NCBI RefSeq assembly: GCF_029319185.1
Contig: NZ_CP119754.1
Span: forward strand, 4,726,187 to 4,750,186
Length of the DNA: 24,000 bases
DNA from: Superficieibacter sp. HKU1
Lineage (GTDB): Bacteria; Pseudomonadota; Gammaproteobacteria; Enterobacterales; Enterobacteriaceae
Reading direction: 5' to 3'
Shown: one piece after another, positions 3,418 through 23,416 of the stretch
Layout: every line of letters begins with the position of its first letter
Numbering within the stretch: the stretch's first letter is position 1
Made by a program: the position numbers and the translations under genes
Notes under the pieces: model-generated
What the model saw: only the letters and a program-made list of their open reading frames with translations
The model's database searches: none
What the model was told of the DNA's origin: nothing

Positions 3418-4146
3418 ATGACTGCTCGCTATATTCAGATAAAAAACGCGATAAAAAAACAGATCCTGAGCAATACATGGCAGGTCGGCGAGAAAATCCC
3501 GTCAGAACGCGAACTGGCCGTCACGTATGGTGTTACGCGGGTTACGCTGCAAAAAGCGATGCATATGCTTGAGCAGGAAGGGTTTATCGAGCGCATCCAC
3601 GGTAAAGGAATGTTTGTTACCCGCAGTATTGAAGACGATGTTTTCATGCTCAACGACGGTACCAGCGATTCCGTGCAGGGGTTTTCCAGGGAATTTCGTG
3701 AGCAGGCGAAAATCTCCAGCCGTCTGATTTGTCACCAGCTTCTTCCCGCCGACAGAATCATTGCCCGCAATCTTGAGATCAACGAAGGCGAACCGGTGCA
3801 TTTTATCCGCCGGGTACGCCTGATTGATGACGAGCCGGTGCTGGTAGAAGACTCATGGATTAATCGCGGCGTTATCCCCGTTATTCCCTCGCGGATCCTC
3901 GAGGAAGGTTCGCTATACGAATATATTGAGCACACCACCGGCAAGAAAATAAAGTTCTATAGCTCGGTCATTGAGGGCGATTTATTTGGCGAGGAGCTGG
4001 CGGCGCTGCTCTCAATCCCGCCGGGCCGTCCGATGCTCAAAGTCTCCGGCGTAACCAAACTTGAAGATGGCACGGCGTTTAACTACTCGTTCAGTTATAA
4101 CCGTGCCGATAAATTTAAAATCAAAAATAACTGGGTGGGGAAATAG
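3418..4146 (+). CDS. GntR-family transcriptional regulator, HutC subfamily (winged HTH plus UTRA effector domain)
   Basis: 242 aa. The N-terminus YIQIKNAIKKQILSNTWQVGEKIPSERELAVTYGVTRVTLQKAMHMLEQEGFIERIHGKGMFV is a canonical GntR HTH. The C-terminal ~160 aa has UTRA-like length and pattern. Confidence 0.9.
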   Translation: MTARYIQIKNAIKKQILSNTWQVGEKIPSERELAVTYGVTRVTLQKAMHMLEQEGFIERIHGKGMFVTRSIEDDVFMLNDGTSDSVQGFSREFREQAKISSRLICHQLLPADRIIARNLEINEGEPVHFIRRVRLIDDEPVLVEDSWINRGVIPVIPSRILEEGSLYEYIEHTTGKKIKFYSSVIEGDLFGEELAALLSIPPGRPMLKVSGVTKLEDGTAFNYSFSYNRADKFKIKNNWVGK

Positions 4147-5415: not shown

Positions 5416-5432
5416 TTTTATTCCTCAGATAA

Positions 5433-5450
5433 GGGTCGCCTGCGCGACCC
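5433..5450 (-). other. Intercistronic GC-rich hairpin between rafA and rafB (GGGTCGC-N4-GCGACCC)
   Basis: A 7-bp perfect stem read directly in the 42-nt rafA-rafB spacer with no following U-run. It is more likely an mRNA-stability or processing element than a terminator. Confidence 0.4.
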
Positions 5451-5457
5451 CACACCC

Positions 5458-7581: not shown

Positions 7582-7617
7582 CAGACATCTCCTGTCGTCG
7601 GGATGTCTTACTGTTGA

Positions 7618-7633
7618 TCCGAAACGTTTCGGA
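7618..7633. promoter_or_regulatory. LacI-family operator, perfect 16-bp palindrome TCCGAAACGTTTCGGA (candidate RafR O site)
   Basis: Read directly in the rafR-rafA spacer. The central CG and AAACG/CGTTT arms fit the LacI/GalR operator pattern. Confidence 0.8.
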
Positions 7634-7638
7634 CAACA

Positions 7639-7655
7639 ACCAAAACGTTTCGGAT
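7639..7655. promoter_or_regulatory. Second LacI-family operator ACCAAAACGTTTCGGAT (near-palindrome)
   Basis: It shares AAACGTTTCGGA with the first site. The centres are 21 bp apart (7625/7626 vs 7646/7647), so both sites face the same side of the helix. Paired operators are recalled for the plasmid raf promoter. Confidence 0.75.
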
Positions 7656-7694
7656 CTGTGATCGGGATATAATTTTACGCGTACAGAGGAAAGA

Positions 7695-8690
7695 TCAGGC
7701 GGTAACGCCAGGGGTAAATTCTGGCTGCCAGAGTACCTGAAGGCGGGAGGCGTCTTCTCCGGCAATAAGCTGGCGGACCATGGCCGCAATCTGCTTGCCC
7801 ACGCCCTGGCGCGTCGACTGGATCACCGCGGCGACGTCGGTTTCCACGATGCTGTCCTGTGGCAGGCCATCATAGACGATAAGCGCCACGCGGTTGTCAC
7901 CCTCCAGCCTTCCCATAGCTGACAGCGCCATGGCGGCACCATCGCCGTGCGTGTTGCAATCAGTGACGATGGCGGTAGGCGGTTCGGGCAGTGCGAGCAG
8001 TGCCTGCGTCTCGTTATAGCCCGCGCGGCGGGAAGGAGGCACAACGCGCAGCCATGCCTCAGAAAGGCCCGCTTCGCGCAATGCGTCCAGGTATCCGTTG
8101 CGCCGCTGGGTAATAAAAGCCTGATTGTTATTCTCGCTCAGCAGCGCAATGCGCTGATGGCCCTGCGCAATCAGGTGGCGCGTAGCCTGATACGTTCCGG
8201 CGTAGTTATCGAAGTCAAACCAGGCGTAGGGCCGGGGAAGCTGGCTGCGGCCCAGGGCGAGAAACGGGAATCCGGCACGCTGTAATTGTTCAAGCCGTGG
8301 ATCGTGGTCAAGCGTATGCGCGACGATCAACGTGTCCACGCGCCGACTCTGCACCATCCGCATGAAGCCGTGCTTATCGGCCTCATCGTCATCGGCCATC
8401 AGCAGCAGGTCGATTTCATAACGTGCCAGCTCGTGACTGATTTCGCCAACCATCTCCATAAAAACGCTGTTACTCAGCGGCGCGGGACGAACGGGAAACA
8501 CCAGCCCTACCGCGTCAATCTTGCCCATCTTCAGACGACGGGCAAACGTGTTCGGTCGATAACCACGCCGCTGCGCTTCTGCTTCAACGCGGGCACGCGT
8601 CTCCTGTGAAACGTCGTCATATCCGTTCAGCGCGCGACTGACGGTGGTAACGGAGAGCTTTAATTCTTTCGCAATAGCTTTCAGTGACAT
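7695..8690 (-). CDS. rafR: LacI-family transcriptional repressor (RafR-like)
   Basis: MSLKAIAKELKLSVTTVSRALNG is a LacI-type HTH, followed by a periplasmic-binding-protein-like sugar domain. I prefer ATG at 8690 over the track's GTG at 8702 because LacI-family HTHs begin within a few residues of the start. Confidence 0.85.
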   Translation of the reverse strand: MSLKAIAKELKLSVTTVSRALNGYDDVSQETRARVEAEAQRRGYRPNTFARRLKMGKIDAVGLVFPVRPAPLSNSVFMEMVGEISHELARYEIDLLLMADDDEADKHGFMRMVQSRRVDTLIVAHTLDHDPRLEQLQRAGFPFLALGRSQLPRPYAWFDFDNYAGTYQATRHLIAQGHQRIALLSENNNQAFITQRRNGYLDALREAGLSEAWLRVVPPSRRAGYNETQALLALPEPPTAIVTDCNTHGDGAAMALSAMGRLEGDNRVALIVYDGLPQDSIVETDVAAVIQSTRQGVGKQIAAMVRQLIAGEDASRLQVLWQPEFTPGVTA

Positions 8691-8741
8691 AGATACCTGC
8701 ACAGGCTGATTGACTTGATGATTTCCCGCCGGGACTCACCG

Positions 8742-13474: not shown

Positions 13475-15220
13475 ATGCTTAACGAACGCCAGCTTACCCT
13501 GCTCGACCTTCTTGAACAGCAGCCCGTTTCTCTTATCGAGCTGGCGCGGTTAACAGAGGTTTCCGGGCGTACCGTTCTGCGTGATATTGATTATCTTAAC
13601 TTTACCCTTAGCGGAACGGCCCATATTCAGGGAACCGGTAGTTCAGGCTACCGGTTAGAGATTTTCGACCGCCGCCGCTATTTCCAGCTTCTGCAACGGC
13701 ATGATAATGATGACCGGTTGCTGGCGCATTTGCTGATCAATGCGTTTACCACACGGACTCAGCTTGCGGAGGCGCTCAATTTACCGGAGGCGTGGGTGGT
13801 CGACCGACTGTCGAGGCTCAGGCTCCGCTATGAACGCGCCTTTACCCTGCAAAGCCGTCCCGGCATGGGATATTTTATTGATGAGCCGGAAGAAAAACGC
13901 ATTATTCTGCTGGCCAACCTGCTGAAAAAAGATCCGTTTATCATCGCCTTGCCTGGCGTCACGCCGGAGGTTGTTGGGGTACTCCCGGACGTGGACAACG
14001 AGGATTTACAGCTGTCGTTTATTCCCGGTGACTATATCGCCAGTGTGATCCTCGCCGTCTATGCGCTCCGTCATCGCCTGAACCGCCGCTGGCCTGAGAC
14101 CCATAACGCGGGACTGCGGACAGCCATCGAACGGGCAGGCCTGTATTTAGGCACCGACGCCATAAATACGTTAACTGGCTTATTAATGCGCCATCAACAA
14201 CGTGCCGGCGAGGTCTCTGCCGCCAGCATTGAAGCATTATTACAGTCCCTGCCGGATATCGCCCGGCTGAATATTATCGACACGCCGCTGGTGGAGGATT
14301 TAACGGGCCATATTCTGCGCTGTACTGCCGCTCCTGTCTGGCTGTCAGAAAACCGTCAGGGTAGCCTGAATAACCTGAAGGCCGCCTGGCCCGCCGCATT
14401 CGACCTGAGCCTGCGCTTTATTAATCAGTTAAGTCAACAGTACGATATCCCGGTATTCGACAGCGATCTGGTGGGGCTTTATTTCGCCTGCGCGCTGGAA
14501 CGTCACCAGAACGAACGCCAGCCAGTGATCCTGCTGTGCGAGCAAAATGCGATTGCCACCATCAATAAGCAGGCTATTGAGCGGGAAATTGTTAACTGCC
14601 GGGTGATTATTGCGCACTCCCTGGCGGAGTTAGGCAATATCAGCACTGAGATTGAGCCAATGCTGATTATTAATAACAGCCATTTTTTCCCGGATGAATC
14701 CCGCCACAAGGTACTGGTAATTAAAAATATTATTACCGCAGCCGGGATCGGTCAGATAAAGGATTTTCTGGCGTCGGCGTTTATCCGTCAGCAGCCTGAG
14801 CGTTTCTTTCTGGCGGAGGGAAGTTTTCATTACGATAACGCGCCGGACGAATCCTGGCAGGCGATGATGGCGCGCATCTGCGAGCAGCTGGTGGCGAGTC
14901 ATCACCTCACTCCCGATGAGGCCGGGCGTATCTGCCTGCGTGAACAGGAAGGTGAAAACCTGATCGTGAACCGGATTGCCATTCCCCACTGCTGGAGCGA
15001 ACAGCAGACGCGGTTTCGCGGATTTTTTATTACGCTGACGTCAGCTATTCAGGTGAATGGAGAACCGGTTAATCATGTGCTGATTGCCTGTGCCAGCTCC
15101 AGCGCCCGCCATGAGCTTAAAATCTTTAGCTATCTGGCGAGCGTACTGTACCGTTATTCAGCCGAGGATATTATCGCGCTAACCGGCCATGAGGCGTTTG
15201 TGGCGCTATTGCGGGAATAG
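13475..15220 (+). CDS. frvR: Frv operon regulator-like protein: N-terminal HTH plus C-terminal PTS EIIA-2-like domain (FrvR-like)
   Basis: 581 aa. N-terminal LTLLDLLEQQPVSLIELARLTEVSGRTVLRDIDYLN is an HTH. The C-terminal ~140 aa carries the EIIA(Fru/Ntr)-like His context NRIAIPH. Its position as the fourth gene matches frvR. Confidence 0.82.
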   Translation: MLNERQLTLLDLLEQQPVSLIELARLTEVSGRTVLRDIDYLNFTLSGTAHIQGTGSSGYRLEIFDRRRYFQLLQRHDNDDRLLAHLLINAFTTRTQLAEALNLPEAWVVDRLSRLRLRYERAFTLQSRPGMGYFIDEPEEKRIILLANLLKKDPFIIALPGVTPEVVGVLPDVDNEDLQLSFIPGDYIASVILAVYALRHRLNRRWPETHNAGLRTAIERAGLYLGTDAINTLTGLLMRHQQRAGEVSAASIEALLQSLPDIARLNIIDTPLVEDLTGHILRCTAAPVWLSENRQGSLNNLKAAWPAAFDLSLRFINQLSQQYDIPVFDSDLVGLYFACALERHQNERQPVILLCEQNAIATINKQAIEREIVNCRVIIAHSLAELGNISTEIEPMLIINNSHFFPDESRHKVLVIKNIITAAGIGQIKDFLASAFIRQQPERFFLAEGSFHYDNAPDESWQAMMARICEQLVASHHLTPDEAGRICLREQEGENLIVNRIAIPHCWSEQQTRFRGFFITLTSAIQVNGEPVNHVLIACASSSARHELKIFSYLASVLYRYSAEDIIALTGHEAFVALLRE

Positions 15221-15223
15221 CGT

Positions 15224-16405
15224 TTATTTGTGGAGAAGAAATCCGCACGATTCATACGCCGCCTTTAGCCTTTTCATCGACTCCTCCAGCTGCGAACGCG
15301 GGCAGGCAATGTTTAGTCTCATATGACCCTCGCCGCCGGGGCCATACTGTATCCCCGGCGAAAGACCAAGCCTGGCGTTATGAACAAAAAATGACATTAA
15401 CTGCGCGTCACTCAGGCCCATTTTTTGCGCATTCAGGAAAACTAAATAAGAGGCACCGCCATAAATCACAGATATCAGAGGACAGTTCTTTTCAACTTCT
15501 TGTTTAACGTATGCCACATTTGCAGCTAAATAGCTTAATAATTTTTCAATCCAGCTGTCGCAATGCGTATAGGCAGAATAAATCGCCGCCTGTTGTATCG
15601 AATTCGTCTCGGCAAGGTAACAGTTATCGAGAAAATGATAAAAGGTATTCCGCAAGGCATCATTTTTGATGAGTGCGATGCCTCCCTGGATCGCAGGCGT
15701 ATTAAACGCCTTGCTGATGGACGTAAAGACAATGGATTTACAGTTTGATGACGCACTCAGGGTAAAAAAAGGAATATGCTGCTGAGGTGGCAATGTTAAA
15801 TCGCAATGCACTTCATCGGATACAACAATTACGTCAGCCTGATGGCAACATCGGTTAATTTCTTCAAGCGTCGCCCGATCCCAAACGATTCCCCCCGGAT
15901 TATGGGGTGAGGAAAACAAAAACATTTTGCACGTTTTTACTTTTTCGCGGAAGTCATGCCAGTCGAGTTCGTAAATGCCATTTTTTTCAACTAAACGTGT
16001 CTGAACCAGGTTCCTGCCACTGGTTTTTATCAGGTTAGGGTAAGGATCATAGACTGGCGTGCATGTTAATATAGTATCGCCCTTTTCCGTCAATGCCATG
16101 ATGGATAAGACTATCGTTTTTATTACGCCCGGAACAAAATGCAACCATGCTTCATCAATGCTGATATCATAGCGTTTTTTATACCATCCACATACGGACT
16201 GCCGCCATTGAGGATGCTCCATATTATAACCCTGCACAGGTTGCGATACGACCTCGCGCAGCGTATGCAGGACAGGCTCTGGCGTCGTGAATTCCATATC
16301 TGCAATCCACATGGGTAATACATCTTCAGTACCAAACATTGTTTTCAATTGCCCATACTTGCGGCTACGCCTGTCTCGTGTAATAACGCGATCAAAATCA
16401 GACAT
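15224..16405 (-). CDS. PLP-dependent class I/II aminotransferase-fold C-S lyase (MalY/PatB-type cystathionine beta-lyase family)
   Basis: 393 aa from ATG 16405 (SD AGGAG 6 nt upstream; the track's GTG 16408 adds one residue). The N-terminus FDRVITRDRRSRKYG...PMWIADMEF is typical of MalY/PatB. The PLP-lysine context is FTSISKAFN. Confidence 0.87.
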   Translation of the reverse strand: MSDFDRVITRDRRSRKYGQLKTMFGTEDVLPMWIADMEFTTPEPVLHTLREVVSQPVQGYNMEHPQWRQSVCGWYKKRYDISIDEAWLHFVPGVIKTIVLSIMALTEKGDTILTCTPVYDPYPNLIKTSGRNLVQTRLVEKNGIYELDWHDFREKVKTCKMFLFSSPHNPGGIVWDRATLEEINRCCHQADVIVVSDEVHCDLTLPPQQHIPFFTLSASSNCKSIVFTSISKAFNTPAIQGGIALIKNDALRNTFYHFLDNCYLAETNSIQQAAIYSAYTHCDSWIEKLLSYLAANVAYVKQEVEKNCPLISVIYGGASYLVFLNAQKMGLSDAQLMSFFVHNARLGLSPGIQYGPGGEGHMRLNIACPRSQLEESMKRLKAAYESCGFLLHK

Positions 16406-16503
16406 CACAATCTCCTGTATTAAAAATCATAAAGGCATCATGCTGTTAAATTCTGCTGAGCCTTTATATTCCTTAGGGTGCGTAATAAAAAATAAACCTG
16501 TCG

Positions 16504-17892
16504 TTAATTCTCAACCAGACGTTCTGGGTCATCACTCGGTTGATACTTTGCAATACCAATACCTGTCGCCGCCCACAAAAGGGCAAAGATAACACCGCTG
16601 TAGCAGAGAATGGCCCACGGTAAATAATCGAGGGTCGCAACTCCCAGCATGGTTGCACAATAGACGCCAGATGCAGACCAGGGAATGATAGGCTCGACAA
16701 CCGTTCCGGCATCTTCCGTTGTGCGGGAGAGGTTTTTGGTGGCCAGCCCTCTTCTTTTGTATTCCTCTTTAAAAGCATCACCGCAAAGTAATAAGGGTAA
16801 CGTGCCGTTTGCGGTACATGCACAGATGGTAAAGGTACTGATAATGGTGGTTAAGACCAGACGGAATGTCGATTTAATGCCTCTGGTCAGCGCGCTAATC
16901 ACCGTATGTAAAGAGCCGGTGGCACTCATTGCGCCAGCAAAGCTAAAGGCGCTAAACACCGTTACGAAACTACTGAACATCGATATCGCTCCGCCACGCT
17001 CCAGCAAGCGAGAGACGTCGGAGGGAAAAGCAGCGGCATTACCGCCTTCAGTCATCGTAAGTTTAAAACCGCTGACGACCGACTCGCCCACTGAAGATGC
17101 TGAAAAATCCTGAAAGACTAATGCGAGGATCATTGAGACGAGCGTTGACAGGAACAGCATGGGAATCGGGGGTTTTTTAGTGATTGAGCCGTACAGGACA
17201 ATAATCGGCGGTAACAATAAGAACAGATTGAAATGATAAATATGACCGATGGCGTTCATCAATACAGAGATGTTTTCTGGCGTATCTGGCGAGATATCAA
17301 TTCCCCTCCCCATATAAATATATACGGCGCAGCAGATAATAAATCCTGGCCCGGTTGTCCACAGCAGATGCGCTATATGAGAATAAAGGTTCACCCCCGC
17401 CGCAAGCGCCGCCATGTTTGTTGAGTCAGATACCGGAGATAATTTGTCGCCGAACCAGCAGCCAGAGACAATTGCTCCAGCGGCAATCGCAAGCGGTACA
17501 TTAAGGCCAATGGCAACACCAATCATGGCAATGCCAACGGTACCAATGGAGCCCCACGAGGTGCCGGTACACACTGAGATAAGCGCGCCTAAGAGGAAAG
17601 CGGAAATATAAAAATATTGTGGATTAATAAACGTTAACCCGTAGTAGATCATCATAGGTATCGTTCCAGATACCATCCATGCACCAATAAGAAAGCCTAT
17701 GCTTGCAACAATGAGGATGACGGGGAGTGCTTCAGATATTTTAGCACAAATTGATTTTAGAATATCATCCCAGGTATAACCATGCGCCAGTGCAATAAGA
17801 GAAGCAGTGGCTGTCCCCATCAGGATCATAGGCTCGGCACGAATATTAAAGACAAAATAACCTATGCTAATTGCGCCCAGCATTACTACCAT
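16504..17892 (-). CDS. NhaC-family (Na+/H+ antiporter-type) transporter; the 5' end appears disrupted or ambiguous
   Basis: 462-aa polytopic protein with NhaC-like blocks TGTSWGSIGTVGIAMIG, FGDKLSPVSDSTN and LLWTTGP. In-frame sequence upstream of ATG 17892 still encodes the conserved family N-terminus (FFWSIIP) but contains no ATG, GTG or TTG. See the finding on the A7 run. Confidence 0.82.
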   Translation of the reverse strand: MVVMLGAISIGYFVFNIRAEPMILMGTATASLIALAHGYTWDDILKSICAKISEALPVILIVASIGFLIGAWMVSGTIPMMIYYGLTFINPQYFYISAFLLGALISVCTGTSWGSIGTVGIAMIGVAIGLNVPLAIAAGAIVSGCWFGDKLSPVSDSTNMAALAAGVNLYSHIAHLLWTTGPGFIICCAVYIYMGRGIDISPDTPENISVLMNAIGHIYHFNLFLLLPPIIVLYGSITKKPPIPMLFLSTLVSMILALVFQDFSASSVGESVVSGFKLTMTEGGNAAAFPSDVSRLLERGGAISMFSSFVTVFSAFSFAGAMSATGSLHTVISALTRGIKSTFRLVLTTIISTFTICACTANGTLPLLLCGDAFKEEYKRRGLATKNLSRTTEDAGTVVEPIIPWSASGVYCATMLGVATLDYLPWAILCYSGVIFALLWAATGIGIAKYQPSDDPERLVEN

Positions 17893-18133
17893 AGGGATTA
17901 TCGACCAAAAAAAGACAATTGCCTTCTGTTTTTCAAAGCGTTACTCTTCAATTCCATAATTCCATCCAAACAGTTAAAAGTTGAATATCTATTACAGACA
18001 GCCTTACCCTAAGTAATAGTAATGTATGAAGTTAAATAATTTGATATAGGTTCCCTGCGGGAATGAAGCTTGTTGTTTTTAGCGCTATATGCTTTTTCAT
18101 GGCTATAACACTTACTGATATTTATACCTCCTG

Positions 18134-19060
18134 CTACGGCAAATGTTGTCTTCGTTGTTGGCTCAGCTTACGGTACTGCTGCGGTGGCATGCCGACGTAT
18201 TTATTAAACGTACTGTAAAAGCGGCTACTGGAACGAAATCCTGCAATCATTGCTATATCAAGAATGGTTTTATCCGTATCGCTAAGCAGAGCACGCACGT
18301 GGTTGATACGCATAGACGTAATATATTGTTTCATGGTCAGTTGCATAACACGCTGAAAAATACCCATCGCGTAATTAGGATTTAGCTTCACGTGTTCAGC
18401 GATAGCATTGACCGTCAATATTTTGTCGCAATGGGTAGCAATAAACTCCAGCATCTGACTCACATAAAATTGGGCATGTCGCGAAAGGCTGTCTTTCTGC
18501 GTGCGCGAGGTTTTATGAATTAACGCAGGTTGCCAGCCAGAAAGGCTAAAGCGCTTTAACATTAGCGCAATTTCATCGATCGCCAACTGGCGAACCTGTT
18601 CATTATCGCTGGTAAGCTCATGCTGCCAGCGCTGAACTTCAAAAATACTGAGCTGCTGCGCGGCGATAGATTCAATGACCATGCCATGCGTAACATGATT
18701 AATCAGTTCACGATCCAGTGGCCAGGTTAAAAACAAATGCATAGGCAAATTGAATATCGCCATCTGCTTACAGCGGCCCGGGCTGGTGAGCTGATGAGGG
18801 GTACAGGCCCAAAACAAGGTGATATGCCCCTGCTTGATCTGCACAACTTCATCGTTAAACAGGTATTCCACATCGCCATCAAAAGGAACGTTGACTTCAA
18901 CCTGACCATGCCAGTGGCTATAGGTCATTGCCAGCGGTGCCCGCAACTCAACGTCCATACGCTGATACTCTGAGTAGAGTGCCAGAGGGCTACGCGTCGT
19001 TTTTTCATAACTGCGACACATATGCGGTTCAGGTGGCAGTTGCGGAATACCATTTTTCAT
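18134..19060 (-). CDS. AraC/XylS-family transcriptional activator, MelR-like
   Basis: From memory, it matches the melibiose regulator MelR along the whole length (SPLALYSEYQRM, HWHGQVEVNVPFDGDVEY, GHITLFWACTPHQL, AMGIFQRVMQLTMKQYITSMRINHVRALLSDTDKTILDIA, FRSSSRFYSTFNKYVGMPPQQYRKLSQQRRQ). I use ATG 19060. The track start 19174 adds 38 basic/hydrophobic residues not expected in the family, and ATG 19021 is an alternative. There is no adjacent melAB, so no symbol is assigned. Confidence 0.85.
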   Translation of the reverse strand: MKNGIPQLPPEPHMCRSYEKTTRSPLALYSEYQRMDVELRAPLAMTYSHWHGQVEVNVPFDGDVEYLFNDEVVQIKQGHITLFWACTPHQLTSPGRCKQMAIFNLPMHLFLTWPLDRELINHVTHGMVIESIAAQQLSIFEVQRWQHELTSDNEQVRQLAIDEIALMLKRFSLSGWQPALIHKTSRTQKDSLSRHAQFYVSQMLEFIATHCDKILTVNAIAEHVKLNPNYAMGIFQRVMQLTMKQYITSMRINHVRALLSDTDKTILDIAMIAGFRSSSRFYSTFNKYVGMPPQQYRKLSQQRRQHLP

Positions 19061-19167
19061 GATGAGTAGCGTTCCCGGAACATGAGTCAGACATACTGTG
19101 ATGGCAAAGCCTGAATACAGCTTAACCGAAAAAAATCTCCTTTTTACTCTTCTTTTTCGTGAAATCA

Positions 19168-19186
19168 TTCCCAAAAACTCAGATTT
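19168..19186 (+). promoter_or_regulatory. 19-bp box TTCCCAAAAACTCAGATTT (candidate AraC/MelR-type binding site A)
   Basis: Read directly, about 110-125 bp upstream of the MelR-like start. It matches box B at 14 of 19 positions, in inverted orientation. Confidence 0.35.
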
Positions 19187-19202
19187 AATACGTTCCGGGG
19201 CA

Positions 19203-19221
19203 AGATCTGAGATAACGGGAA
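19203..19221 (-). promoter_or_regulatory. 19-bp box TTCCCGTTATCTCAGATCT (candidate AraC/MelR-type binding site B, inverted)
   Basis: The reverse complement of 19203-19221 shares TTCCC-N5-CTCAGAT-N-T with box A. The two boxes are 16 bp apart. Confidence 0.35.
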
Positions 19222-19246
19222 GGTCAACTATAGGTTGCTACTCAGT

Positions 19247-19281
19247 AAAAACTGAGGCCGTTCCGGTTAAGAAACGGCCTC
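19247..19281 (-). terminator. Rho-independent terminator of yiiG
   Basis: The minus strand reads GAGGCCGTT-tcttaaccgg-AACGGCCTC followed by AGTTTTT. This is a 9-bp perfect GC-rich stem plus a U-run, 64 nt after the yiiG stop. Confidence 0.75.
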
Positions 19282-19344
19282 CAGTACGCATAACACTAAA
19301 CGAAGGGAAGTAATTGAGGTGCCCTCTGGTTTTCCCCGCTGTGA

Positions 19345-20385
19345 TTAGTGCAAGCGATTATAGTTGTCCACCATCTGGTTATAGCTTCTTAGCGCACGTG
19401 GATAAGAAGCTTCAACCATCCAGCCGCCATTTGCATCTGAGAGAAGCCGGTTTTCACTTTCGGAATAAGGCGTTTTATCTCTCACACGGCGGATATATTT
19501 TTTAGCATCAAGTTGGTATTCATCAGCCGAAGAAATAAACATGCTAAAATTATGCGAATCGTCCGATTGTGCTTTCAGTTTTTCTTTAAATTCAGCCGTC
19601 GTTTTTTCCAGTTCCGTCAATTGTTTCATTGCGCTATCGGCATCAAAATTTTCAGTGCTAATAACATCATTAACATTGCCGGAATGTATCATAATAGCCA
19701 GTGAATAATAACTGGCAGACTTTCCTTCACTTTGCTCAATCGCTTTCAGCTGCGCAATCTGACGTTCTGCTTCTACCTGTTTGATCGCATCATTATAAGC
19801 TTTAGCGGCAGGTTCAAACGTCTCCCACTGTTTCATCAGGGTTTGGTGCAGCGTTTTACCTTGTGCAAAGGCATCATCCTTGTAATTTTCCTGCTCGTAG
19901 TATTTATCGATTTCATTGATGGTATTGGCGACATCTACTGCACTGGTAATAAAGGTGGAGGCTGCACCATCCATCGGTTCCAGCGCAGGTTTCAGCTTAA
20001 CAACTTCAGGAACGGCTTTCTGGCATTTTTCAATCGTGGAATCAGATACAGCGTAGGTGCCGTAAACAATACGTTCTTTTCCGGTAGGGCCCGTTTTGAG
20101 ATCTTTCAGCCAGCTCGCGTAGCGATCCATACTGTGATAAATCGAAAGCTGCAGGGTATTATAGCAATCAATATAGGTGTTCATTTTCTCATCATGAACC
20201 ATCTGCCGATCGGCCTGCGCGTCATTAGCGGATGCCGCTTGTTCTTGCGTTTTATCAGGTGCAGCATTAGATGGCGCTGGCGCACTGCTGGAAGGCGCTG
20301 CCTGAGAAGGTTCTGTTGAATTCTTATCGTCACAACCGGTAATCAGGGTTAAAACAATGGCTGTTGCTAATAGACTCCGCTTCAT
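19345..20385 (-). CDS. yiiG: YiiG-like lipoprotein (DUF3829 family)
   Basis: 346 aa. The signal peptide carries the lipobox LITGC, followed by a Pro/Ala/Ser-rich linker. The body is recalled as similar to E. coli YiiG (YIDCYN, YKDDAFAQGKTLHQ, YYSLAIMI, PRALRSYNQMVDNYN). Its position convergent with frvR matches E. coli synteny. SD AGGAA. Confidence 0.8.
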   Translation of the reverse strand: MKRSLLATAIVLTLITGCDDKNSTEPSQAAPSSSAPAPSNAAPDKTQEQAASANDAQADRQMVHDEKMNTYIDCYNTLQLSIYHSMDRYASWLKDLKTGPTGKERIVYGTYAVSDSTIEKCQKAVPEVVKLKPALEPMDGAASTFITSAVDVANTINEIDKYYEQENYKDDAFAQGKTLHQTLMKQWETFEPAAKAYNDAIKQVEAERQIAQLKAIEQSEGKSASYYSLAIMIHSGNVNDVISTENFDADSAMKQLTELEKTTAEFKEKLKAQSDDSHNFSMFISSADEYQLDAKKYIRRVRDKTPYSESENRLLSDANGGWMVEASYPRALRSYNQMVDNYNRLH

Positions 20386-20734
20386 ATATTTCCTGCCCGA
20401 GGTATTAAAAGAATACTTATCATTAACCAGCTTTTTAGTAAAAGCAATTTTAGATGTGACATCAACTGGTAATAATAAATCAAGAAAACATAGCTCATCA
20501 TTTTGGATGAAAAAATGTTTCCTGTAATTCTAATTGTTATTACTTAATTGAAACACCCCCCTATATTGGGGAGGTATGAGGTAGTATGTGCCTCTCATAT
20601 CAAAATTAGCGCAGTGAAACTTACGGCACTTCTGCACCATCTCCTTCGCAAAGGAAGGATAAAACTATTGAGAAACACGTCACATAATTATCAAAACATC
20701 ATTTCATTTTTCATAGCAAGAGCGGAGAGTACTC

Positions 20735-20785
20735 AGTGTCTAATGAACTTATTAGTGTCTAGTGTCTAATTTTTTCTAGACGCTA
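20735..20785. repeat. Cluster of four AG(T/C)GTCTA motifs (three direct, two of them overlapping in tandem, plus one inverted) upstream of the sigma-54 activator gene
   Basis: Read directly: AGTGTCTAAT 20735-20744, AGTGTCTA 20754-20761, AGTGTCTAAT 20761-20770, and the inverted AGCGTCTA (complement of 20777-20784). GTCTAG (20758-20763) and CTAGAC (20776-20781) also form a 6-bp inverted repeat. The cluster ends 28 bp before the ATG at 20813. Confidence 0.6.
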
Positions 20786-20812
20786 ATTTCTACTCTATCA
20801 GGATGTTACGTT

Positions 20813-23416
20813 ATGGCGCTGTCGGCTAAAGAAAAATTGTTCCATAAAATTATCACTCACTATGCCGAAAGCCCTTCAGGATTCACGGCTCAGGACTGTG
20901 CGGACTTTATCAAGGTCAACCGCAGCGTTATCAGCCATTATCTGAACCGATTATGTGATGACGGGCGTTTACATAAGGAGAATACGCGCCCGGTCCGCTT
21001 TTTTGTCCGGCAGTCTGGTGCCGATGCGCCGTCGCAATCCCGCACAGTGTCGAAAAACCAGGATGCCTTTCAACATTTCATTGGCGCACAGGGAAGCCTG
21101 GCTGAAGCAGTAGCATTATGTCGTTCAGCGGTGGATTACCCGGGCGACGGATTGCCGATCCTGCTGTCCGGCGAAAGCGGCGTGGGTAAAAGTCACCTCG
21201 CGCTGCTGATTTATCAGTATGCCGTAGAGCGCGGTGTTATTGCCGCTGATAAACCGTTCATTGAACTCAACTGTGCAGACTACGCCAATAACCCGGAATT
21301 GCTCTCTGCTACGTTATTTGGCTATACACGCGGTGCCTTTACCGGGGCCGATCGCGAAAAACGCGGCGCGTTTGACGATGCCGACGGCGGATTTCTGTTT
21401 CTTGATGAAGTACACCGTCTGTCAGCGGAGAATCAGGAGAAATTATTTCTGTTTATGGATAAGGGGTATTTCTATCGACTGGGAGATAACCGTACACGCC
21501 ATCCGGTCTCGCTGCGCTTTATTTTTGCCACCACTGAAAATATCGACACGGTACTCCTTAACACTTTTCGCCGACGCATCCCGGTGCGTGTCACCTTACC
21601 CAACTATATCTCCCGTCCGCTTACCGAACGCATCGCGCACATCACTCACTTTATGCGGCAGGAAGCGCTGAGCCTGCGCCGGGATATCCATCTGGATAAT
21701 CAGCTGATGCATCAACTGGTAACGTCGCCGGTACGCGGTAATATCGGTGAATTAAAAAACCAGATTAAAGTGATGTGCGCCAGCGCATGGAGCAATAACC
21801 ACGATGCGGGCGTTATCACGCTTCATGGCACGCATGCCGGAGGGGAAACGCTGGTTGTTTCCGCTCGCGCCCGCGATGTGGTGCCGGATGCCAGCGCGCT
21901 GCTGCCAAAAGCGATGCGGGACGAGGTGATTTTTCGCGATTTTTGTCATAGCGGTAATGTGCTGTTGCTGAACCGGAAAATGGAGCAGTTGCTGACCACC
22001 ATCGGCGGTATGATGGCTGCCGAATCGCTGTACAGCGGGTATGTCTGGCAAAATACCATGCATGCCATTAACGAACTGGAGAATTTGACCGGTATCTCGT
22101 GCGGGCAGGAAATCCGTAAAGCAGTATGGCTATGCCTGAGTTACGCGTTGCATACTTCTCAGGAGACGGCGACGATTACCGAACTGCAAAGCATATCCGA
22201 TTACGTTTCCGGTAAGGCGCGTTTACTGGCGGAAGAGTGCGTCACGCTGCTGGCAAAACACGTAGTTGATCAGCCCTTTCCCCTACTGCTGCCGCTGTTA
22301 AGCTGCGCCTTTCATACGCTGGCAGGTGAAGACGATCATATTCAGGGCATCATTGTTTCGCACGGACGCTCTACCGCCTCCAGCATTGCTGGCATCGCCA
22401 ATCAGCTTACCGGCGGCTACTACTTTAAAGCCTTCGATATGCCCAACGCGACGTCCACACGCGAGATCATTGATTTGCTGATTGCCCATTTGTCCCACCT
22501 TACCCAGGGCGCAGGGCTTATTATCCTGGTGGATATGGGGTCGCTGAAAGCAATCTACGAGGAGATTAAGCTCCATCTGCATGGTGAATTGCTGGTGATT
22601 AACAATGTTACTACGGCCATGGCGCTGGATATCGCTTCGAAAATCCAGGATAAACTCCCGATGGAGGCGATTATCGAAAGCGCGAAAGGCGCGTATGAAG
22701 TCGAAACCCGATATTACGCAGGTATGCTGCCAGGCAATAAAATCATTATTTCCTGCATTTCCGGCGAGGGGATTTCCCGCAAACTAAAAGACATTGTTCA
22801 GCGCTATCTGGCGCAGGACGAGATCGACATTATTACAATGGAATATGACGATCTGAAATGGAAGATCGCCCATGCGGACCCGGCGCTGAACGGCACACGG
22901 TTAATCATCACCACCACCGATTTGGAAGCGGGCTATATTCCGCTGATTAGCGTTGAACAGCTGATTAAAGAAAAAACACAGATCCTGAAGCGCGATTATT
23001 TCAGCGGCCTGCTGATGGAAGGCGGGCTGGAACCGATGATTGATGAGGTTGTGAAGCTGTTTACCGTGGAAGGCGTTGCCAGTCGCCTGAATTTCCTGAA
23101 CCCGGTAGTGATCATTGATGAAGTGGACGCAGTGATTAAGCAGTATGAAGCATTCTACAAAATCCACTTTGAAAGTTATCTGCGTATTAACCTCTTTATG
23201 CATATCGCGCTGATGATTGAACGCGTGATGGTTAACAACGGCGTACGCCACCGCGAGGAAGCAGAGCTGACGCTGGATCAGCAGGCGTTTGTCGCCGTGC
23301 ACGATACTTTTTTCCAGGCGCTGAATCGCAAATATCATATTACCCTGCCGCTGACCGAAGTACTGATGATTTATGAAATTATGGAGCCCTGGATTGCCGC
23401 TGATGCAACCTGGTAA
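20813..23416 (+). CDS. Sigma-54-dependent transcriptional activator of the LevR/ManR type (HTH, AAA+ domain, PRD, EIIA-Man-like, EIIB-Gat-like, PRD)
   Basis: 867 aa. Walker A GESGVGKS, the sigma-54 contact loop GAFTGA (RGAFTGAD), and Walker B FLFLDEVH. Downstream domains are IQGIIVSHGRSTASS (EIIA-Man-like His), KIIISCISGEGISRKL (EIIB-like Cys) and a C-terminal PRD-like region (FMHIALMIERV). Confidence 0.9.
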   Translation: MALSAKEKLFHKIITHYAESPSGFTAQDCADFIKVNRSVISHYLNRLCDDGRLHKENTRPVRFFVRQSGADAPSQSRTVSKNQDAFQHFIGAQGSLAEAVALCRSAVDYPGDGLPILLSGESGVGKSHLALLIYQYAVERGVIAADKPFIELNCADYANNPELLSATLFGYTRGAFTGADREKRGAFDDADGGFLFLDEVHRLSAENQEKLFLFMDKGYFYRLGDNRTRHPVSLRFIFATTENIDTVLLNTFRRRIPVRVTLPNYISRPLTERIAHITHFMRQEALSLRRDIHLDNQLMHQLVTSPVRGNIGELKNQIKVMCASAWSNNHDAGVITLHGTHAGGETLVVSARARDVVPDASALLPKAMRDEVIFRDFCHSGNVLLLNRKMEQLLTTIGGMMAAESLYSGYVWQNTMHAINELENLTGISCGQEIRKAVWLCLSYALHTSQETATITELQSISDYVSGKARLLAEECVTLLAKHVVDQPFPLLLPLLSCAFHTLAGEDDHIQGIIVSHGRSTASSIAGIANQLTGGYYFKAFDMPNATSTREIIDLLIAHLSHLTQGAGLIILVDMGSLKAIYEEIKLHLHGELLVINNVTTAMALDIASKIQDKLPMEAIIESAKGAYEVETRYYAGMLPGNKIIISCISGEGISRKLKDIVQRYLAQDEIDIITMEYDDLKWKIAHADPALNGTRLIITTTDLEAGYIPLISVEQLIKEKTQILKRDYFSGLLMEGGLEPMIDEVVKLFTVEGVASRLNFLNPVVIIDEVDAVIKQYEAFYKIHFESYLRINLFMHIALMIERVMVNNGVRHREEAELTLDQQAFVAVHDTFFQALNRKYHITLPLTEVLMIYEIMEPWIAADATW

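What the first reader, a model, noticed from the sequence alone, without database searches (positions are those of the whole stretch)
15221..19246. AT-rich three-gene block (MelR-like regulator, NhaC-family transporter, MalY/PatB C-S lyase) between convergent frvR and yiiG: candidate uncharacterised import-and-cleavage module
Seen: three co-directional minus-strand genes run from 19060 down to 15224. They are an AraC regulator that looks MelR-like over its full length, a 240-bp AT-rich spacer, a 462-aa NhaC-family transporter, a 95-nt spacer, and a 393-aa MalY/PatB-type PLP lyase (FTSISKAFN lysine context). My hand counts of single 60-nt lines give about 33-42% G+C inside the block (lines at 15481, 17221, 18421), against about 58-70% in lines from frvB and rafA (12001, 6901). 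The block abuts frvR with only 3 bp between the two stop codons and ends at the yiiG terminator. From memory, frvR and yiiG are direct convergent neighbours in E. coli K-12, so this looks like an insertion. I see no integrase, IS, tRNA or flanking direct repeat. Knowledge: NhaC-family members include amino-acid and organic-acid carriers (for example the predicted MetT and LysW transporters, and MleN). MalY/PatB enzymes cleave cystathionine and cysteine S-conjugates. Inference: this may be an inducible uptake plus beta-elimination route for an S-substituted cysteine or cystathionine-like compound, controlled by a regulator of a sugar-sensing type. That pairing is unusual. MalY is also known to antagonise MalT by protein contact, so lyase-regulator cross-talk is conceivable.
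Basis: partly seen in the sequence, partly recalled or inferred. Interest (0 to 1): 0.7.

Follow-up and report, generated by a model that had tools for sequence, protein, structure and literature searches.

The report
MelR-paralogue transporter–lyase operon, substrate unknown
This is a horizontally spread three-gene operon of enterobacteria in which a copy of the melibiose sensor MelR appears to switch on an NhaC-type transporter and a PLP lyase, probably to import and split an unidentified, likely galactose-linked, amino acid; I found no published study of it.

Summary
The three minus-strand genes are real. They sit between frvR and yiiG, which are direct neighbours in E. coli. The same triad (regulator, NhaC, PatB lyase) occurs in all 26 other loci checked, about eight genera, with unrelated flanks.

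New points. The regulator is 80% identical to E. coli MelR but belongs to a separate clade (88/100 bootstrap). That clade coexists with true, melAB-linked MelR in four genera. A melAB-type operator lies upstream of the regulator in every module locus examined: an inverted 18-bp pair, 38 bp start to start, with a conserved -10-like hexamer at pmelAB distance. The triad therefore looks like one self-activated operon.

The same NhaC–lyase clade also sits inside a galactonate-type sugar-acid operon. A distant pair sits beside a GalR/GalS-like repressor. The lyase clade has replaced hydrophobic family residues with polar ones next to catalytic residues. I infer a galactose-linked beta-substituted alanine as substrate, not plain cystathionine; this is unproven.

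Caveats. Low GC is shared with yiiG. The window's nhaC carries a 1-bp frameshift near its 5' end, so the "462-aa" gene and the "240-bp spacer" are artefacts of it. No literature on the module was found.

The parts
19205..19222 (-). MelR-type operator half, 'site 1' (CTTCCCGTTATCTCAGAT; 4 mismatches to E. coli melAB site 1)
   Evidence: It pairs with site 2 at exactly 38 bp start to start, as in E. coli pmelAB. The same pair is found in all 16 module loci checked.
19167..19184 (-). MelR-type operator half, 'site 2' (inverted; ATTCCCAAAAACTCAGAT on the + strand; 1 mismatch to the E. coli site)
   Evidence: this is the only match with up to 3 mismatches in the window, against 0.02 expected; the paired pattern is unique, with 0 of 100 shuffles matching.
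19119..19124 (-). Predicted -10-like hexamer TAAGCT of the module promoter; predicted transcription start near 19112
   Evidence: The hexamer is conserved as TAAG(C/A)T in all 11 aligned module loci. It lies 42 bp after site 2, against 41 bp to CATGAT in E. coli pmelAB. This is inference; no transcript data exist.
18134..19060 (-). MelR-paralogue AraC-family regulator (308 aa), first gene of the operon
   Evidence: It scores 566 bits against the MelR equivalog model. It is 80% identical to E. coli MelR over 295 aa. It belongs to a separate clade from melAB-linked MelRs (88/100).
17958..18133 (-). AT-rich regulator-nhaC spacer (the wider 17893-18133 stretch is 34% G+C). It has no MelR-type site, no terminator-like hairpin and no Rfam match.
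   Evidence: The 3' ~50 bp (17958-18010) is nearly identical in Pectobacterium. In the second sub-clade of the module this spacer is much shorter: the distance from the regulator stop to the conserved FFW codons is 83-117 bp in four of its loci (185 bp in Raoultella L091), against 210-256 bp in the window's sub-clade.
16504..17957 (-). NhaC-family transporter gene, with the conserved start at 17957. The reading frame is broken at the run 17907-17913; the intact ORF as it stands is 16504-17892 (462 aa).
   Evidence: It scores 484 bits against TIGR00931. It is 95% identical to the intact 488-aa gene of Superficieibacter sp. 1612_C1. The frameshift is shown.
17907..17913 (-). A7/T7 run carrying a 1-bp deletion relative to all orthologues (TCTTTTTTCTGG becomes TCTTTTTTTGG). 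A -1 slip on T_TTT_TTT_G would restore the frame.
   Evidence: Whether this is a mutation, a sequencing error or slippage-prone expression cannot be decided here.
15224..16405 (-). PatB/MalY-family PLP lyase (393 aa; AGGAG Shine-Dalgarno 6 nt before the ATG)
   Evidence: It scores 397 bits against TIGR04350. The closest solved structure is B. subtilis PatB 6QP3, E 7e-76. Catalytic residues Y60, Y119, N169, D197, K232 and R363 are conserved, with clade-specific polar substitutions beside them.
19254..19281 (-). yiiG terminator-like hairpin, marking the upstream boundary of the inserted block
15202..15224 (+). Hairpin at the frvR end that overlaps the lyase stop; a possible shared terminator and the downstream boundary of the block

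Best explanation
The block is a self-contained, horizontally transferred operon with the order promoter, melR-paralogue, nhaC, patB.

Shown:
- The triad is conserved as a unit.
- The regulator is a paralogue of MelR, not the melAB regulator.
- A melAB-type operator and promoter sit in front of the regulator gene.

Inferred:
- On binding an alpha-galactoside-like effector, the regulator occupies the paired 18-bp sites. It then activates transcription of itself, the transporter and the lyase, giving positive autoregulation.
- The NhaC-family carrier imports a polar beta-substituted L-alanine.
- The PatB-family PLP enzyme removes the beta-substituent by alpha,beta-elimination, yielding pyruvate, ammonium and the leaving group.

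My best guess for the substrate is a galactose-linked amino acid. O-alpha-D-galactosyl-L-serine, as released from plant extensins and arabinogalactan proteins, is the leading candidate; S-galactosyl-cysteine is an alternative. The freed galactose would enter host pathways.

In this particular window the transporter gene is frameshifted near its 5' end, so the module may be impaired.

Sub-probabilities:
- Operon under MelR-type control: about 0.8.
- Uptake plus beta-elimination: about 0.7.
- Sugar-linked or sugar-derived amino-acid substrate: about 0.45.
- Specifically galactosyl-serine: about 0.2.
For: - Triad conservation. The order regulator-NhaC-lyase is found in 26 other loci (27 with the window). 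These are Superficieibacter sp., S. electus, Buttiauxella and Citrobacter, Pectobacterium (two assemblies), Serratia, Raoultella and Providencia, two further contigs retrieved by exact-protein look-up, and 11 of 11 close NhaC hits in metagenomes. Flanks are unrelated, and some carry an IS or integrative-element genes.
- Operator. All 16 module loci checked have the inverted 18-bp pair at 38 bp spacing, 99-111 bp upstream of the regulator ATG. A conserved TAAG(C/A)T follows at pmelAB-like distance. The pattern is unique in the window, with 0 of 100 shuffles matching.
- Single transcription unit. The spacer has no terminator-like hairpin, no MelR site and no Rfam hit.
- Paralogy. The module regulators are monophyletic in 88 of 100 bootstraps. 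Module-clade and MelR-clade proteins are both on record for Serratia fonticola, and in different species or strains of Raoultella, Buttiauxella and Citrobacter.
- Effector. The effector domain is barely diverged: 76% identity between clades against 81-82% within, and no strict discriminating residue.
- Galactose link 1. The same lyase/NhaC clade (61% and 71% identity to the window proteins) lies in a tightly packed operon with overlapping stop and start codons. Its order is GntR, DgoK-like kinase, KDPGal aldolase (274 bits, cut-off 207), NhaC, PatB, SMP-30-type lactonase, IlvD-family dehydratase, DapA-like, SDR. In Atlantibacter the cluster is NhaC-PatB-lactonase-SDR.
- Galactose link 2. Serratia plasmids carry a GalR/GalS-like LacI repressor next to a distant NhaC-PatB pair.
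- Active site. Clade-invariant polar residues replace hydrophobic family residues beside the catalytic residues: Q58, D120, Y122, Q240, Q271, Q272, Q353, Y354 and H361.
- Elimination chemistry. A distant lyase-NhaC pair is followed by RidA, the 2-aminoacrylate deaminase.
Against: - There is no experimental or transcript evidence of any kind.
- The substrate is inferred only from gene context and residue polarity. No enzyme that beta-eliminates O-glycosyl-serine is known to me, and none turned up in the literature searches.
- No alpha-galactosidase or galactose gene is consistently linked to the MelR-type modules.
- PatB-family enzymes characterised so far are C-S (or C-N) lyases.
- The GalR/S-like assignment is below the curated cut-off (295 bits against 557). 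That PatB is only 28% identical to the window lyase.
- The contigs labelled 'E. coli/Shigella' that carry the sugar-acid operon match none of 5,426 complete E. coli genomes, so their origin is uncertain.
- A conserved ~50-bp block just upstream of nhaC in the window's sub-clade could be an internal promoter.
- The window's nhaC is frameshifted.
Confidence: 0.5

Rival explanations
1. The module is an inducible uptake and beta-C-S-lyase route for cystathionine, lanthionine, djenkolate or other cysteine S-conjugates, used as sulfur or nitrogen sources. The sugar-type regulator is an evolutionary accident.
For: - The lyase passes the PatB C-S lyase model, and its nearest solved relatives are C-S lyases.
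- NhaC-family members include a predicted methionine carrier, MetT (PMC2940859), and the transporter scores 244 bits against the ArcD arginine/ornithine antiporter model.
- The module needs no extra enzymes if its products are homocysteine or a thiol plus pyruvate.
Against: - No sulfur-metabolism gene, S-box, T-box or CysB/MetJ-type context appears in any of the loci; Rfam finds nothing.
- Three independent regulatory or operon contexts are sugar or galactose related.
- Clade-specific polar substitutions around the active site argue against hydrophobic S-conjugates.
Confidence: 0.22
2. The module is an accessory part of the melibiose regulon rather than a catabolic pathway for a new substrate. 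NhaC is a true Na+/H+ antiporter that expels the Na+ co-imported by MelB. The PatB protein acts mainly as a MalY-like protein antagonist of the MelR-type activator, giving negative feedback.
For: - The operator is indistinguishable from melAB sites, and the effector domain is barely diverged from MelR.
- The transporter exceeds the 'Na+/H+ antiporter NhaC' equivalog cut-off.
- MalY is known to inhibit MalT independently of catalysis (established knowledge).
Against: - The NhaC-PatB pair travels together under unrelated regulators (GntR, LacI, YheO) and inside a sugar-acid operon. That fits a transporter-enzyme couple, not Na+ homeostasis.
- All catalytic residues of the lyase are strictly conserved.
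- No melB lies in any module locus.
Confidence: 0.08
3. The substrate is a sugar-derived alpha-amino acid, such as a 2-amino-2-deoxy-aldonate of the galacto series, rather than a glycoside. The lyase eliminates the beta-hydroxyl, acting as an ammonia-lyase or dehydratase like glucosaminate ammonia-lyase. This would give 2-keto-3-deoxy-galactonate directly.
For: - DgoK-like kinase and KDPGal aldolase sit immediately upstream of NhaC-PatB, with lactonase and SDR downstream, in the GntR-type operon.
- This arrangement fits the sequence amino-sugar, lactone, amino-aldonate, KDGal.
- NhaC carriers take amino and organic acids.
Against: - D-galactosaminate and D-glucosaminate have the D configuration at C-alpha, whereas PatB enzymes act on L-amino acids (established knowledge).
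- The IlvD-family dehydratase and DapA-like genes would be redundant.
- An open-chain acid is an unlikely effector for a regulator 76-80% identical to the melibiose sensor.
- MelR-type modules lack the dehydrogenase and lactonase.
Confidence: 0.1
4. In this strain the block is a decaying remnant. The frameshifted nhaC makes the module non-functional, whatever its ancestral role.
For: - There is a 1-bp deletion in the run at 17907-17913. It removes the conserved N-terminus and half of predicted TM1.
- The Buttiauxella warmboldiae copy is also frameshifted a few codons downstream.
- An Enterobacter plasmid carries only a lyase remnant cut by Tn3.
Against: - The rest of nhaC (462 codons), the lyase and the regulator are intact and 94-99% identical to the intact module of Superficieibacter sp. 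1612_C1.
- The lesion is in a homopolymer, so it may be a sequencing error.
- A -1 slip on T_TTT_TTT_G, or transcriptional slippage, would restore the frame.
- This rival concerns the state of the module, not its function, and is compatible with the main explanation.
Confidence: 0.3

Closest known systems
E. coli MelR and the melAB promoter (AraC family; melibiose regulon)
   Same: The regulator is 80% identical over its full length. The 18-bp operator sequence, the inverted pair, the 38-bp spacing and the ~41-42 bp distance to the -10 are all the same.
   Different: - The targets are the regulator itself plus an NhaC carrier and a PLP lyase, not alpha-galactosidase and MelB.
- The regulator gene lies downstream of the promoter instead of divergent from it. 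Positive rather than negative autoregulation is therefore predicted.
- The regulator falls in a separate clade that coexists with true MelR in four genera.
- The CRP-site region between the two sites is not conserved.
E. coli malI-malXY (MalY, a PatB-family beta-C-S lyase co-transcribed with a sugar PTS permease under a LacI-type repressor)
   Same: A PatB/MalY-family lyase is encoded directly after a transporter and is controlled by a sugar-type regulator. The physiological substrate is unknown in both cases. MalY is a detectable homologue (1D2F, E 1e-48).
   Different: - The transporter is NhaC family, not PTS EIICB.
- The regulator is AraC/MelR type, not LacI/MalI.
- No evidence exists here for a protein-protein anti-activator role.
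- The lyase belongs to a distinct, more polar clade.
Characterised PatB/MetC-type C-S lyases (B. subtilis PatB 6QP3, S. hominis PatB 6QP1/2, cystalysin 1C7N)
   Same: Fold-type I PLP enzymes with the SxSK lysine and conserved Tyr, Asn, Asp and Arg catalytic residues. The TIGR04350 score is above the cut-off.
   Different: Identity to the other PatB-family homologues outside the clade is only 28-43%. Thirty-eight clade-invariant positions differ from the family, many of them hydrophobic-to-Gln/Asp/Glu/His/Tyr changes next to catalytic residues. The genomic contexts relate to sugar metabolism, not sulfur metabolism.
NhaC-family (TC 2.A.35) substrate carriers: MetT (predicted methionine), ArcD (arginine/ornithine), MleN (malate/lactate)
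   Same: Same family (PF03553 and TIGR00931; ArcD model 244 bits). The pairing with an amino-acid-metabolising enzyme is also shared.
   Different: No characterised member is close, and no solved structure was found by sequence. The substrate here is unknown, and the window copy is frameshifted.
LmbF/CcbF, PLP-dependent processing of S-glycosyl-L-cysteine in lincosamide biosynthesis (from my own knowledge, not tested here)
   Same: This is a precedent that a fold-type I PLP enzyme can act on a cysteine whose beta-substituent is a galacto-configured sugar.
   Different: These are biosynthetic, actinobacterial enzymes with no detectable close sequence relationship; they are absent from PDB hits at E up to 1e-8. 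The linkage is S, not O.

Membership tests
PatB/MalY family C-S lyase (TIGR04350) | Whole-protein score above the curated cut-off | tested here: met
   397.5 bits against a cut-off of 340.
PatB/MalY family C-S lyase (TIGR04350) | PLP-binding lysine in the SxSK motif, plus family-invariant catalytic residues | tested here: met
   K232 lies in FTSISKAFN. Y60, Y119, N169, D197, H200, R363 and N365 fall in columns at least 95% conserved across 93 family members.
PatB/MalY family C-S lyase (TIGR04350) | Beta-C-S lyase activity on cystathionine or cysteine S-conjugates | not testable with these tools
   This needs an enzyme assay. The clade-specific polar pocket residues raise doubt about classical substrates.
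MelR (NCBIfam NF007693 equivalog; regulator of melAB) | Whole-protein score above the equivalog cut-off | tested here: met
   566 bits against a cut-off of 253. It is 80% identical to E. coli MelR. NCBI names several clade members 'MelR'.
MelR (NCBIfam NF007693 equivalog; regulator of melAB) | Encoded divergently from melAB | tested here: not met
   No melA or melB lies in the window or within 10 kb in any of the module loci checked. All six canonical MelR loci examined have melA-melB divergent from melR.
MelR (NCBIfam NF007693 equivalog; regulator of melAB) | Orthology: clusters with melAB-linked MelRs | tested here: not met
   The module regulators form their own clade in 88 of 100 NJ bootstraps, rooted with Vibrio MelR. 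Both clades occur in Serratia fonticola and in the genera Buttiauxella, Raoultella and Citrobacter.
MelR (NCBIfam NF007693 equivalog; regulator of melAB) | Recognises the 18-bp MelR operator | tested here: inconclusive
   MelR-type sites in the correct pairing lie upstream of the gene in 16 of 16 loci. Binding itself was not tested.
MelR (NCBIfam NF007693 equivalog; regulator of melAB) | Activated by melibiose | not testable with these tools
   The effector domain shows no strict clade-discriminating residue. An alpha-galactoside effector is therefore plausible but unproven.
NhaC family transporter (TIGR00931 / PF03553) | Score above the cut-off | tested here: met
   484.5 bits against a cut-off of 370; PF03553 E 1e-46.
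NhaC family transporter (TIGR00931 / PF03553) | Intact full-length reading frame | tested here: not met
   A 1-bp deletion at 17907-17913 separates the conserved start (17957) from the body of the gene. Most orthologues are about 480-493 aa; the one other exception, the Buttiauxella warmboldiae copy, is itself frameshifted.
NhaC family transporter (TIGR00931 / PF03553) | Na+/H+ antiport as the physiological function | not testable with these tools
   Obligate pairing with a PLP lyase under four kinds of regulator argues for a substrate carrier.
Horizontally acquired genomic islet | Absent from the same junction in a related genome | tested here: met
   In E. coli, frvR and yiiG are adjacent with 101 bp between them. 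S. electus carries a different module variant at a different locus.
Horizontally acquired genomic islet | Gene phylogeny incongruent with taxonomy, and varied flanks | tested here: met
   The Serratia and Buttiauxella regulators are 94% identical across different families. An IS, integrative-element genes and T6SS/R-M neighbours occur at other loci.
Horizontally acquired genomic islet | Composition distinct from both flanks; integrase, tRNA or direct repeats present | tested here: not met
   GC3 is 47-51%, against 61-72% on the frv side, but yiiG is 41%. No tRNA, integrase or flanking repeats were found.

The most novel reading that the evidence does not exclude
The NhaC-PatB pair defines a previously unrecognised catabolic route. 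Free glyco-amino acids, with O-alpha-D-galactosyl-L-serine from plant extensin or arabinogalactan-protein breakdown as the prototype, are imported. They are then cleaved not by a glycosidase but by PLP-dependent beta-elimination. This 'glycosyl-serine lyase' activity is not described for any enzyme. It would release galactose, pyruvate and ammonium, under the control of a MelR paralogue that senses the alpha-galactosyl moiety. The same logic would explain why MalY, a C-S lyase, sits in the sugar-transport operon malXY.
Probability: 0.18. Interest if true: 0.8.

Novelty: new variant of a known kind. Interest (0 to 1): 0.55.

Why it matters
- It identifies a widespread, mobile and apparently unstudied operon in plant-, soil- and gut-associated Enterobacterales. 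The genera include Pectobacterium, Serratia, Citrobacter, Raoultella, Providencia, Buttiauxella and Superficieibacter.
- NCBI and UniRef names for proteins of this clade read 'transcriptional regulator MelR' or 'melibiose operon regulatory protein'. In fact the regulator is a paralogue wired to different genes. This matters for regulon inference and for possible cross-talk with melAB in the genera where both paralogues occur.
- The convergence of three galactose-related contexts on one transporter-lyase pair gives a concrete, testable lead. The lead is a new substrate class, and possibly a new PLP reaction type.
- It also offers an entry point to the long-open question of what sugar-operon-encoded C-S lyases such as MalY are for.

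Tried and rejected
- Riboswitch or leader control of nhaC or the lyase. Rfam found nothing at E up to 1 across 15000-19500.
- A second MelR site or a terminator in the regulator-nhaC spacer. None was found.
- 'It is simply the true melR left behind after loss of melAB'. This is rejected by the clade structure, by coexistence with canonical MelR in four genera, and by the fixed triad in 26 other loci.
- Neofunctionalised effector pocket. I looked for clade-discriminating residues. None passed at 85% or above, and only 5 conservative ones at 70% or above, so a changed ligand is not supported by sequence.
- Consistent linkage to alpha-galactosidase or galactose genes in MelR-type loci. None was found; raf lies nearby only in Superficieibacter.
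- Presence in E. coli. The window's nhaC-lyase DNA matched no complete E. coli genome, nor did the GntR-type island.
- Plasmid carriage of the full module. None was found, only a Tn3-truncated lyase remnant on Enterobacter plasmids and a distant LacI-NhaC-PatB variant on Serratia plasmids.
- Mobile-element signatures in the window. None was found.
- Sequence relationship to the S-glycosyl-cysteine enzymes LmbF/CcbF. None was seen among PDB hits.
- Literature. Seven full-text searches found no paper on the module or on bacterial glycosyl-serine catabolism.
- Exact-sequence look-ups of the window proteins failed. Structure prediction was not run, because coordinates for pocket analysis are not returned.

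Full report
**1. The observation**

The window carries three co-directional minus-strand ORFs exactly where stated. They are a lyase at 15224-16405/16408, an NhaC-family ORF at 16504-17892, and an AraC-family regulator at 18134-19060. frvR ends at 15220, 3 bp from the lyase stop.

Curated models place all three above their cut-offs:
- PatB family C-S lyase TIGR04350: 397 bits, cut-off 340.
- NhaC TIGR00931: 484 bits, cut-off 370.
- MelR equivalog NF007693: 566 bits, cut-off 253.

The FTSISKAFN lysine context is present. No tRNA, no meaningful flanking repeats and no Rfam element were found. In E. coli, frvR and yiiG are direct convergent neighbours 101 bp apart, so the block is an insertion relative to that junction.

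The nearest genome is Superficieibacter sp. 1612_C1 (locus L001). It has the same frvB-frvX-frvR / lyase-nhaC-regulator / yiiG order at 94-99% protein identity. The window itself matches no E. coli genome and no plasmid at high identity.

**2. Corrections to the observation**

*Composition.* The block is 45.3% G+C, against 55.8% on the frv side but 48.0% on the other side. GC3 is 47-51% in the three genes and 61-72% in the frv and raf genes. However, yiiG, which is syntenic with E. coli, has the lowest GC3 at 41%. Low GC is therefore real but not specific to the block.

*The transporter.* Ten orthologues compared across the gene's 5' end encode the start region ...(R/K)xLSFFWS(V/L)xPM..., and the other NhaC genes called or matched full-length run to about 480-493 aa. 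The window reads TCTTTTTTTGG where the others read TCTTTTTTCTGG or a synonymous variant. This 1-bp loss lies in the run at 17907-17913. It puts the conserved ATG at 17957 out of frame, and that frame stops after 23 codons.

The '462-aa NhaC' is what remains downstream. It lacks the basic N-terminus and about half of the first hydrophobic helix. The true regulator-nhaC spacer is 176 bp, not 241 bp. Whether the lesion is a mutation, a homopolymer sequencing error or a slippage-prone site cannot be decided here. A -1 slip on T_TTT_TTT_G would restore the frame.

**3. The triad is a conserved, mobile unit**

The order regulator-NhaC-lyase recurs with unrelated flanks in:
- Buttiauxella warmboldiae, Citrobacter sp. 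FP75 and Superficieibacter electus;
- Pectobacterium wasabiae;
- Serratia liquefaciens, next to an IS;
- Raoultella terrigena, between oligogalacturonide and sucrose genes;
- Providencia rettgeri, next to integrative-element genes;
- two further contigs retrieved by exact-protein look-up;
- all 11 close NhaC relatives found in metagenomes.

Regulators from Serratia and Buttiauxella, which belong to different families, are 94% identical. That fits horizontal transfer. S. electus carries a different variant of the module at a different locus. An Enterobacter IncF plasmid carries only the lyase, cut by a Tn3-family transposase.

**4. The regulator is a MelR paralogue**

It is 80% identical to E. 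coli MelR over 295 residues and about 75% at the DNA level against 5,400 E. coli genomes. Yet no melA or melB lies near it in any module locus. All six canonical MelRs examined do sit divergently from melA-melB: E. coli, C. freundii, K. pneumoniae, Salmonella, Duffyella and Kosakonia.

In a tree rooted with Vibrio parahaemolyticus MelR, the 22 module-type regulators form one clade. It is sister to the melAB-linked clade, with 88 of 100 NJ bootstraps. Both clades are represented in Serratia fonticola, and in different species or strains of Buttiauxella, Raoultella and Citrobacter. Source names for proteins of the module clade read 'MelR' or 'melibiose operon regulatory protein', which is an over-annotation.

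The two clades are barely differentiated. Effector-domain identity is 76% between clades and 81-82% within them. No position discriminates them at 85% or above, and only five conservative positions do so at 70% or above. Sequence gives no sign of a remodelled effector pocket, so an alpha-galactoside-like inducer remains the most economical assumption.

**5. A melAB-type promoter sits in front of the regulator gene**

The E. coli melAB promoter contains two identical 18-bp MelR sites (ATTCCCATAAACTCAGAT) as an inverted pair, 38 bp start to start. The window has the same arrangement at 19205-19222 (4 mismatches) and 19167-19184 (1 mismatch). It lies between the yiiG terminator and the regulator ATG. 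The paired pattern is unique in the window, and none of 100 shuffles matched it.

All 16 module loci checked have the pair at exactly 38 bp, 99-111 bp upstream of the regulator start. Downstream of site 2, the aligned module loci conserve TTTTTTCGGxTAAG(C/A)T. This -10-like hexamer lies 42 bp after site 2, against 41 bp to CATGAT in E. coli.

The regulator-nhaC spacer contains no MelR-like site, no terminator-like hairpin and no promoter-like match on the coding strand. In the second sub-clade of the module it is much shorter: the distance from the regulator stop to the conserved FFW codons is 83-117 bp in four of its loci (185 bp in Raoultella L091), against 210-256 bp in the window's sub-clade.

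I conclude, by inference, that the three genes form one operon driven by a MelR-type, activator-dependent promoter. The regulator would therefore activate its own synthesis. This is the opposite of the negative autoregulation of canonical melR. An internal promoter in the window's sub-clade is not excluded, because a ~50-bp block just upstream of nhaC is nearly identical in Pectobacterium.

**6. What the transporter-lyase pair does**

The lyase keeps every family-invariant catalytic residue. Its closest solved relatives are PatB and C-S lyases (6QP3, E 7e-76; MalY 1D2F, E 1e-48). A more distant lyase-NhaC pair is followed by RidA, the 2-aminoacrylate deaminase. That fits alpha,beta-elimination chemistry.

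Three contexts point to galactose or sugar chemistry rather than sulfur metabolism.

(a) The MelR paralogue and its operator, described above.

(b) Members of the same lyase/NhaC clade, 61% and 71% identical to the window proteins, lie in a tightly packed operon. Its order is GntR, DgoK-like kinase, KDPGal aldolase (274 bits, cut-off 207), NhaC, PatB, SMP-30/gluconolactonase-type lactonase, IlvD-family dehydratase, DapA-like protein, SDR. Stop and start codons overlap at three junctions. Atlantibacter hermannii has NhaC-PatB-lactonase-SDR. Together these enzymes make up a De Ley-Doudoroff-type route from a free aldose to pyruvate plus glyceraldehyde-3-phosphate.

(c) Conjugative Serratia plasmids carry a LacI-family repressor, whose best models are GalR and GalS (295 and 292 bits, below cut-off), next to a distant NhaC-PatB pair.

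In addition, 38 positions are invariant in the clade but rare in the wider PatB family. Many replace hydrophobic residues with Gln, Asp, Glu, His or Tyr immediately beside catalytic residues:
- Q58 next to Y60.
- D120 and Y122 next to Y119.
- Q240 after K232.
- Q353, Y354 and H361 before R363.
- Q271 and Q272.

These residues are shared by the MelR-type and GntR-type members, so both contexts should concern the same substrate class.

My working model is that the carrier imports a galactose-linked beta-substituted L-alanine. The lyase would then release the sugar plus pyruvate and ammonium. O-alpha-galactosyl-L-serine, the Ser-O-Gal unit of plant extensins and arabinogalactan proteins, is the leading candidate. 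It fits:
- the L-amino-acid stereochemistry;
- an alpha-galactoside-type sensor;
- the aldose-oxidising genes of the GntR variant;
- the plant and soil hosts. Two modules sit beside oligogalacturonate lyase genes.

This is inference only. I know of no enzyme with this activity, and the literature searches found none.

**7. Rivals**

It has no contextual support.
- A 'melibiose accessory' model (Na+ extrusion plus a MalY-like anti-activator) fits the unchanged operator and effector domain. It does not explain why NhaC and PatB travel together under GntR, LacI and YheO regulators.
- An amino-aldonate ammonia-lyase model fits the adjacent DgoK and KDPGal aldolase. It conflicts with the D configuration of such acids and makes other operon genes redundant.
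- The frameshift means the module may be inactive in this strain.

**8. Comparison with known systems and novelty**

The system works like malI-malXY, with a sugar-type regulator, a transporter and a PatB-family lyase. It borrows the MelR/pmelAB regulatory hardware. It is a member of the PatB and NhaC families. It is not the melAB regulator, because two defining features were tested and not met.

Seven full-text searches found no description of the module. I rate it a new variant of known kinds. If the glyco-amino-acid lyase idea proves right, it would be a new reaction and a new pathway.

**9. Limits**

- No expression, binding or enzyme data exist.
- Only three GntR-type loci were seen. Two of them are labelled E. 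coli/Shigella, yet the island is absent from 5,426 complete E. coli genomes.
- I could not check whether the window's genome also has melR-melAB.
- The trees are neighbour-joining only.

Noticed in passing
window 17907-17913 (nhaC 5' end): A 1-bp deletion creates a T7 run on the coding strand and frameshifts nhaC after codon 19. The 0-frame stops three codons after the run (GGT CGA TAA). The motif T_TTT_TTT_G is a classic -1 slippery heptamer, so ribosomal or transcriptional slippage could restore the frame. A sequencing error is equally possible.
   Followed up: partly
L002 (Buttiauxella warmboldiae) about 8440-8470: The orthologous nhaC is also frameshifted, a few codons further downstream (after ...ISIGYFIF). 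That makes two independent 5'-end lesions in two genomes.
   Followed up: partly
window 17958-18010: The ~50-bp block just upstream of the conserved nhaC start (GGTAAGGCTGTCTGTAATAGATATTCAACTTTTAACTGTTTGGATGGAATT) is almost identical in Pectobacterium wasabiae, although the flanking genes are only 86-88% identical at the protein level. It could be an internal promoter or a translational control element.
   Followed up: partly
window 19345-20385 (yiiG, DUF3829) and 20386-21000: yiiG is syntenic with E. coli but has the lowest GC3 in the window (41%). The low-GC stretch continues to about 21000. It is unexplained.
   Followed up: no
window 4153-8702: A raf-like cluster comprises a LacY/RafB-type permease, a 707-aa GH36-type alpha-galactosidase and a LacI regulator. 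It runs at 53-60% G+C, between a GH4/PTS-IIC/GntR cluster (653-4146) and the frv operon. An alpha-galactoside system therefore lies about 6.5 kb from the MelR-paralogue module, but only in Superficieibacter.
   Followed up: partly
window 20813-23416: A LevR-type sigma-54 activator has AAA+, EIIA-Man and PRD domains. It scores well below the cut-off for DagR (436 bits against 1400). Its target operon lies beyond the window.
   Followed up: no
L029, L033, L035, L054, L058, L061, L068, L070, L071, L076, L078 (Oscillospiraceae, Lachnospiraceae and other Bacillota): Distant PatB homologues (34-37% identical) in these gut and rumen anaerobes have a sigma-54-dependent activator gene about 0.5-1.2 kb upstream. 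This is a different regulatory solution for a PatB lyase.
   Followed up: no
L082 (Enterobacter asburiae plasmid pECLA) 7979-12354; also L084, L003, L090: An orthologue of the module lyase (about 71% identical to the window's) survives alone on IncF plasmids, truncated from its operon by a Tn3-family transposase. It is followed by a beta-carbonic anhydrase and a glycosyltransferase cluster. The same carbonic anhydrase (93-100% identical) follows the module in Citrobacter and lies near it in Serratia.
   Followed up: partly
L113-L118, L123, L124 and L109-L111, L119, L120 (metagenome contigs): More distant NhaC carriers (47-50%) are again paired with a class I/II aminotransferase-fold enzyme. 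In one group the pair is inserted between xylAB and xylR. In another the order is YheO-type regulator, lyase, NhaC, RidA.
   Followed up: partly
L093, L094 (assemblies labelled Shigella flexneri / E. coli): A nine-gene sugar-acid operon contains NhaC-PatB and is inserted next to rihC. It has no megablast match in 5,426 complete E. coli genomes. Its proteins are 78-92% identical to Atlantibacter hermannii, so the species label of these contigs is doubtful.
   Followed up: partly
one search hit list: Source names for module-clade regulators in Pectobacterium, Serratia fonticola, Scandinavium and S. electus read 'transcriptional regulator MelR'; the Raoultella ornithinolytica one is only 'AraC family transcriptional regulator'. 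The equivalog model NF007693 does not separate the two paralogues.
   Followed up: yes
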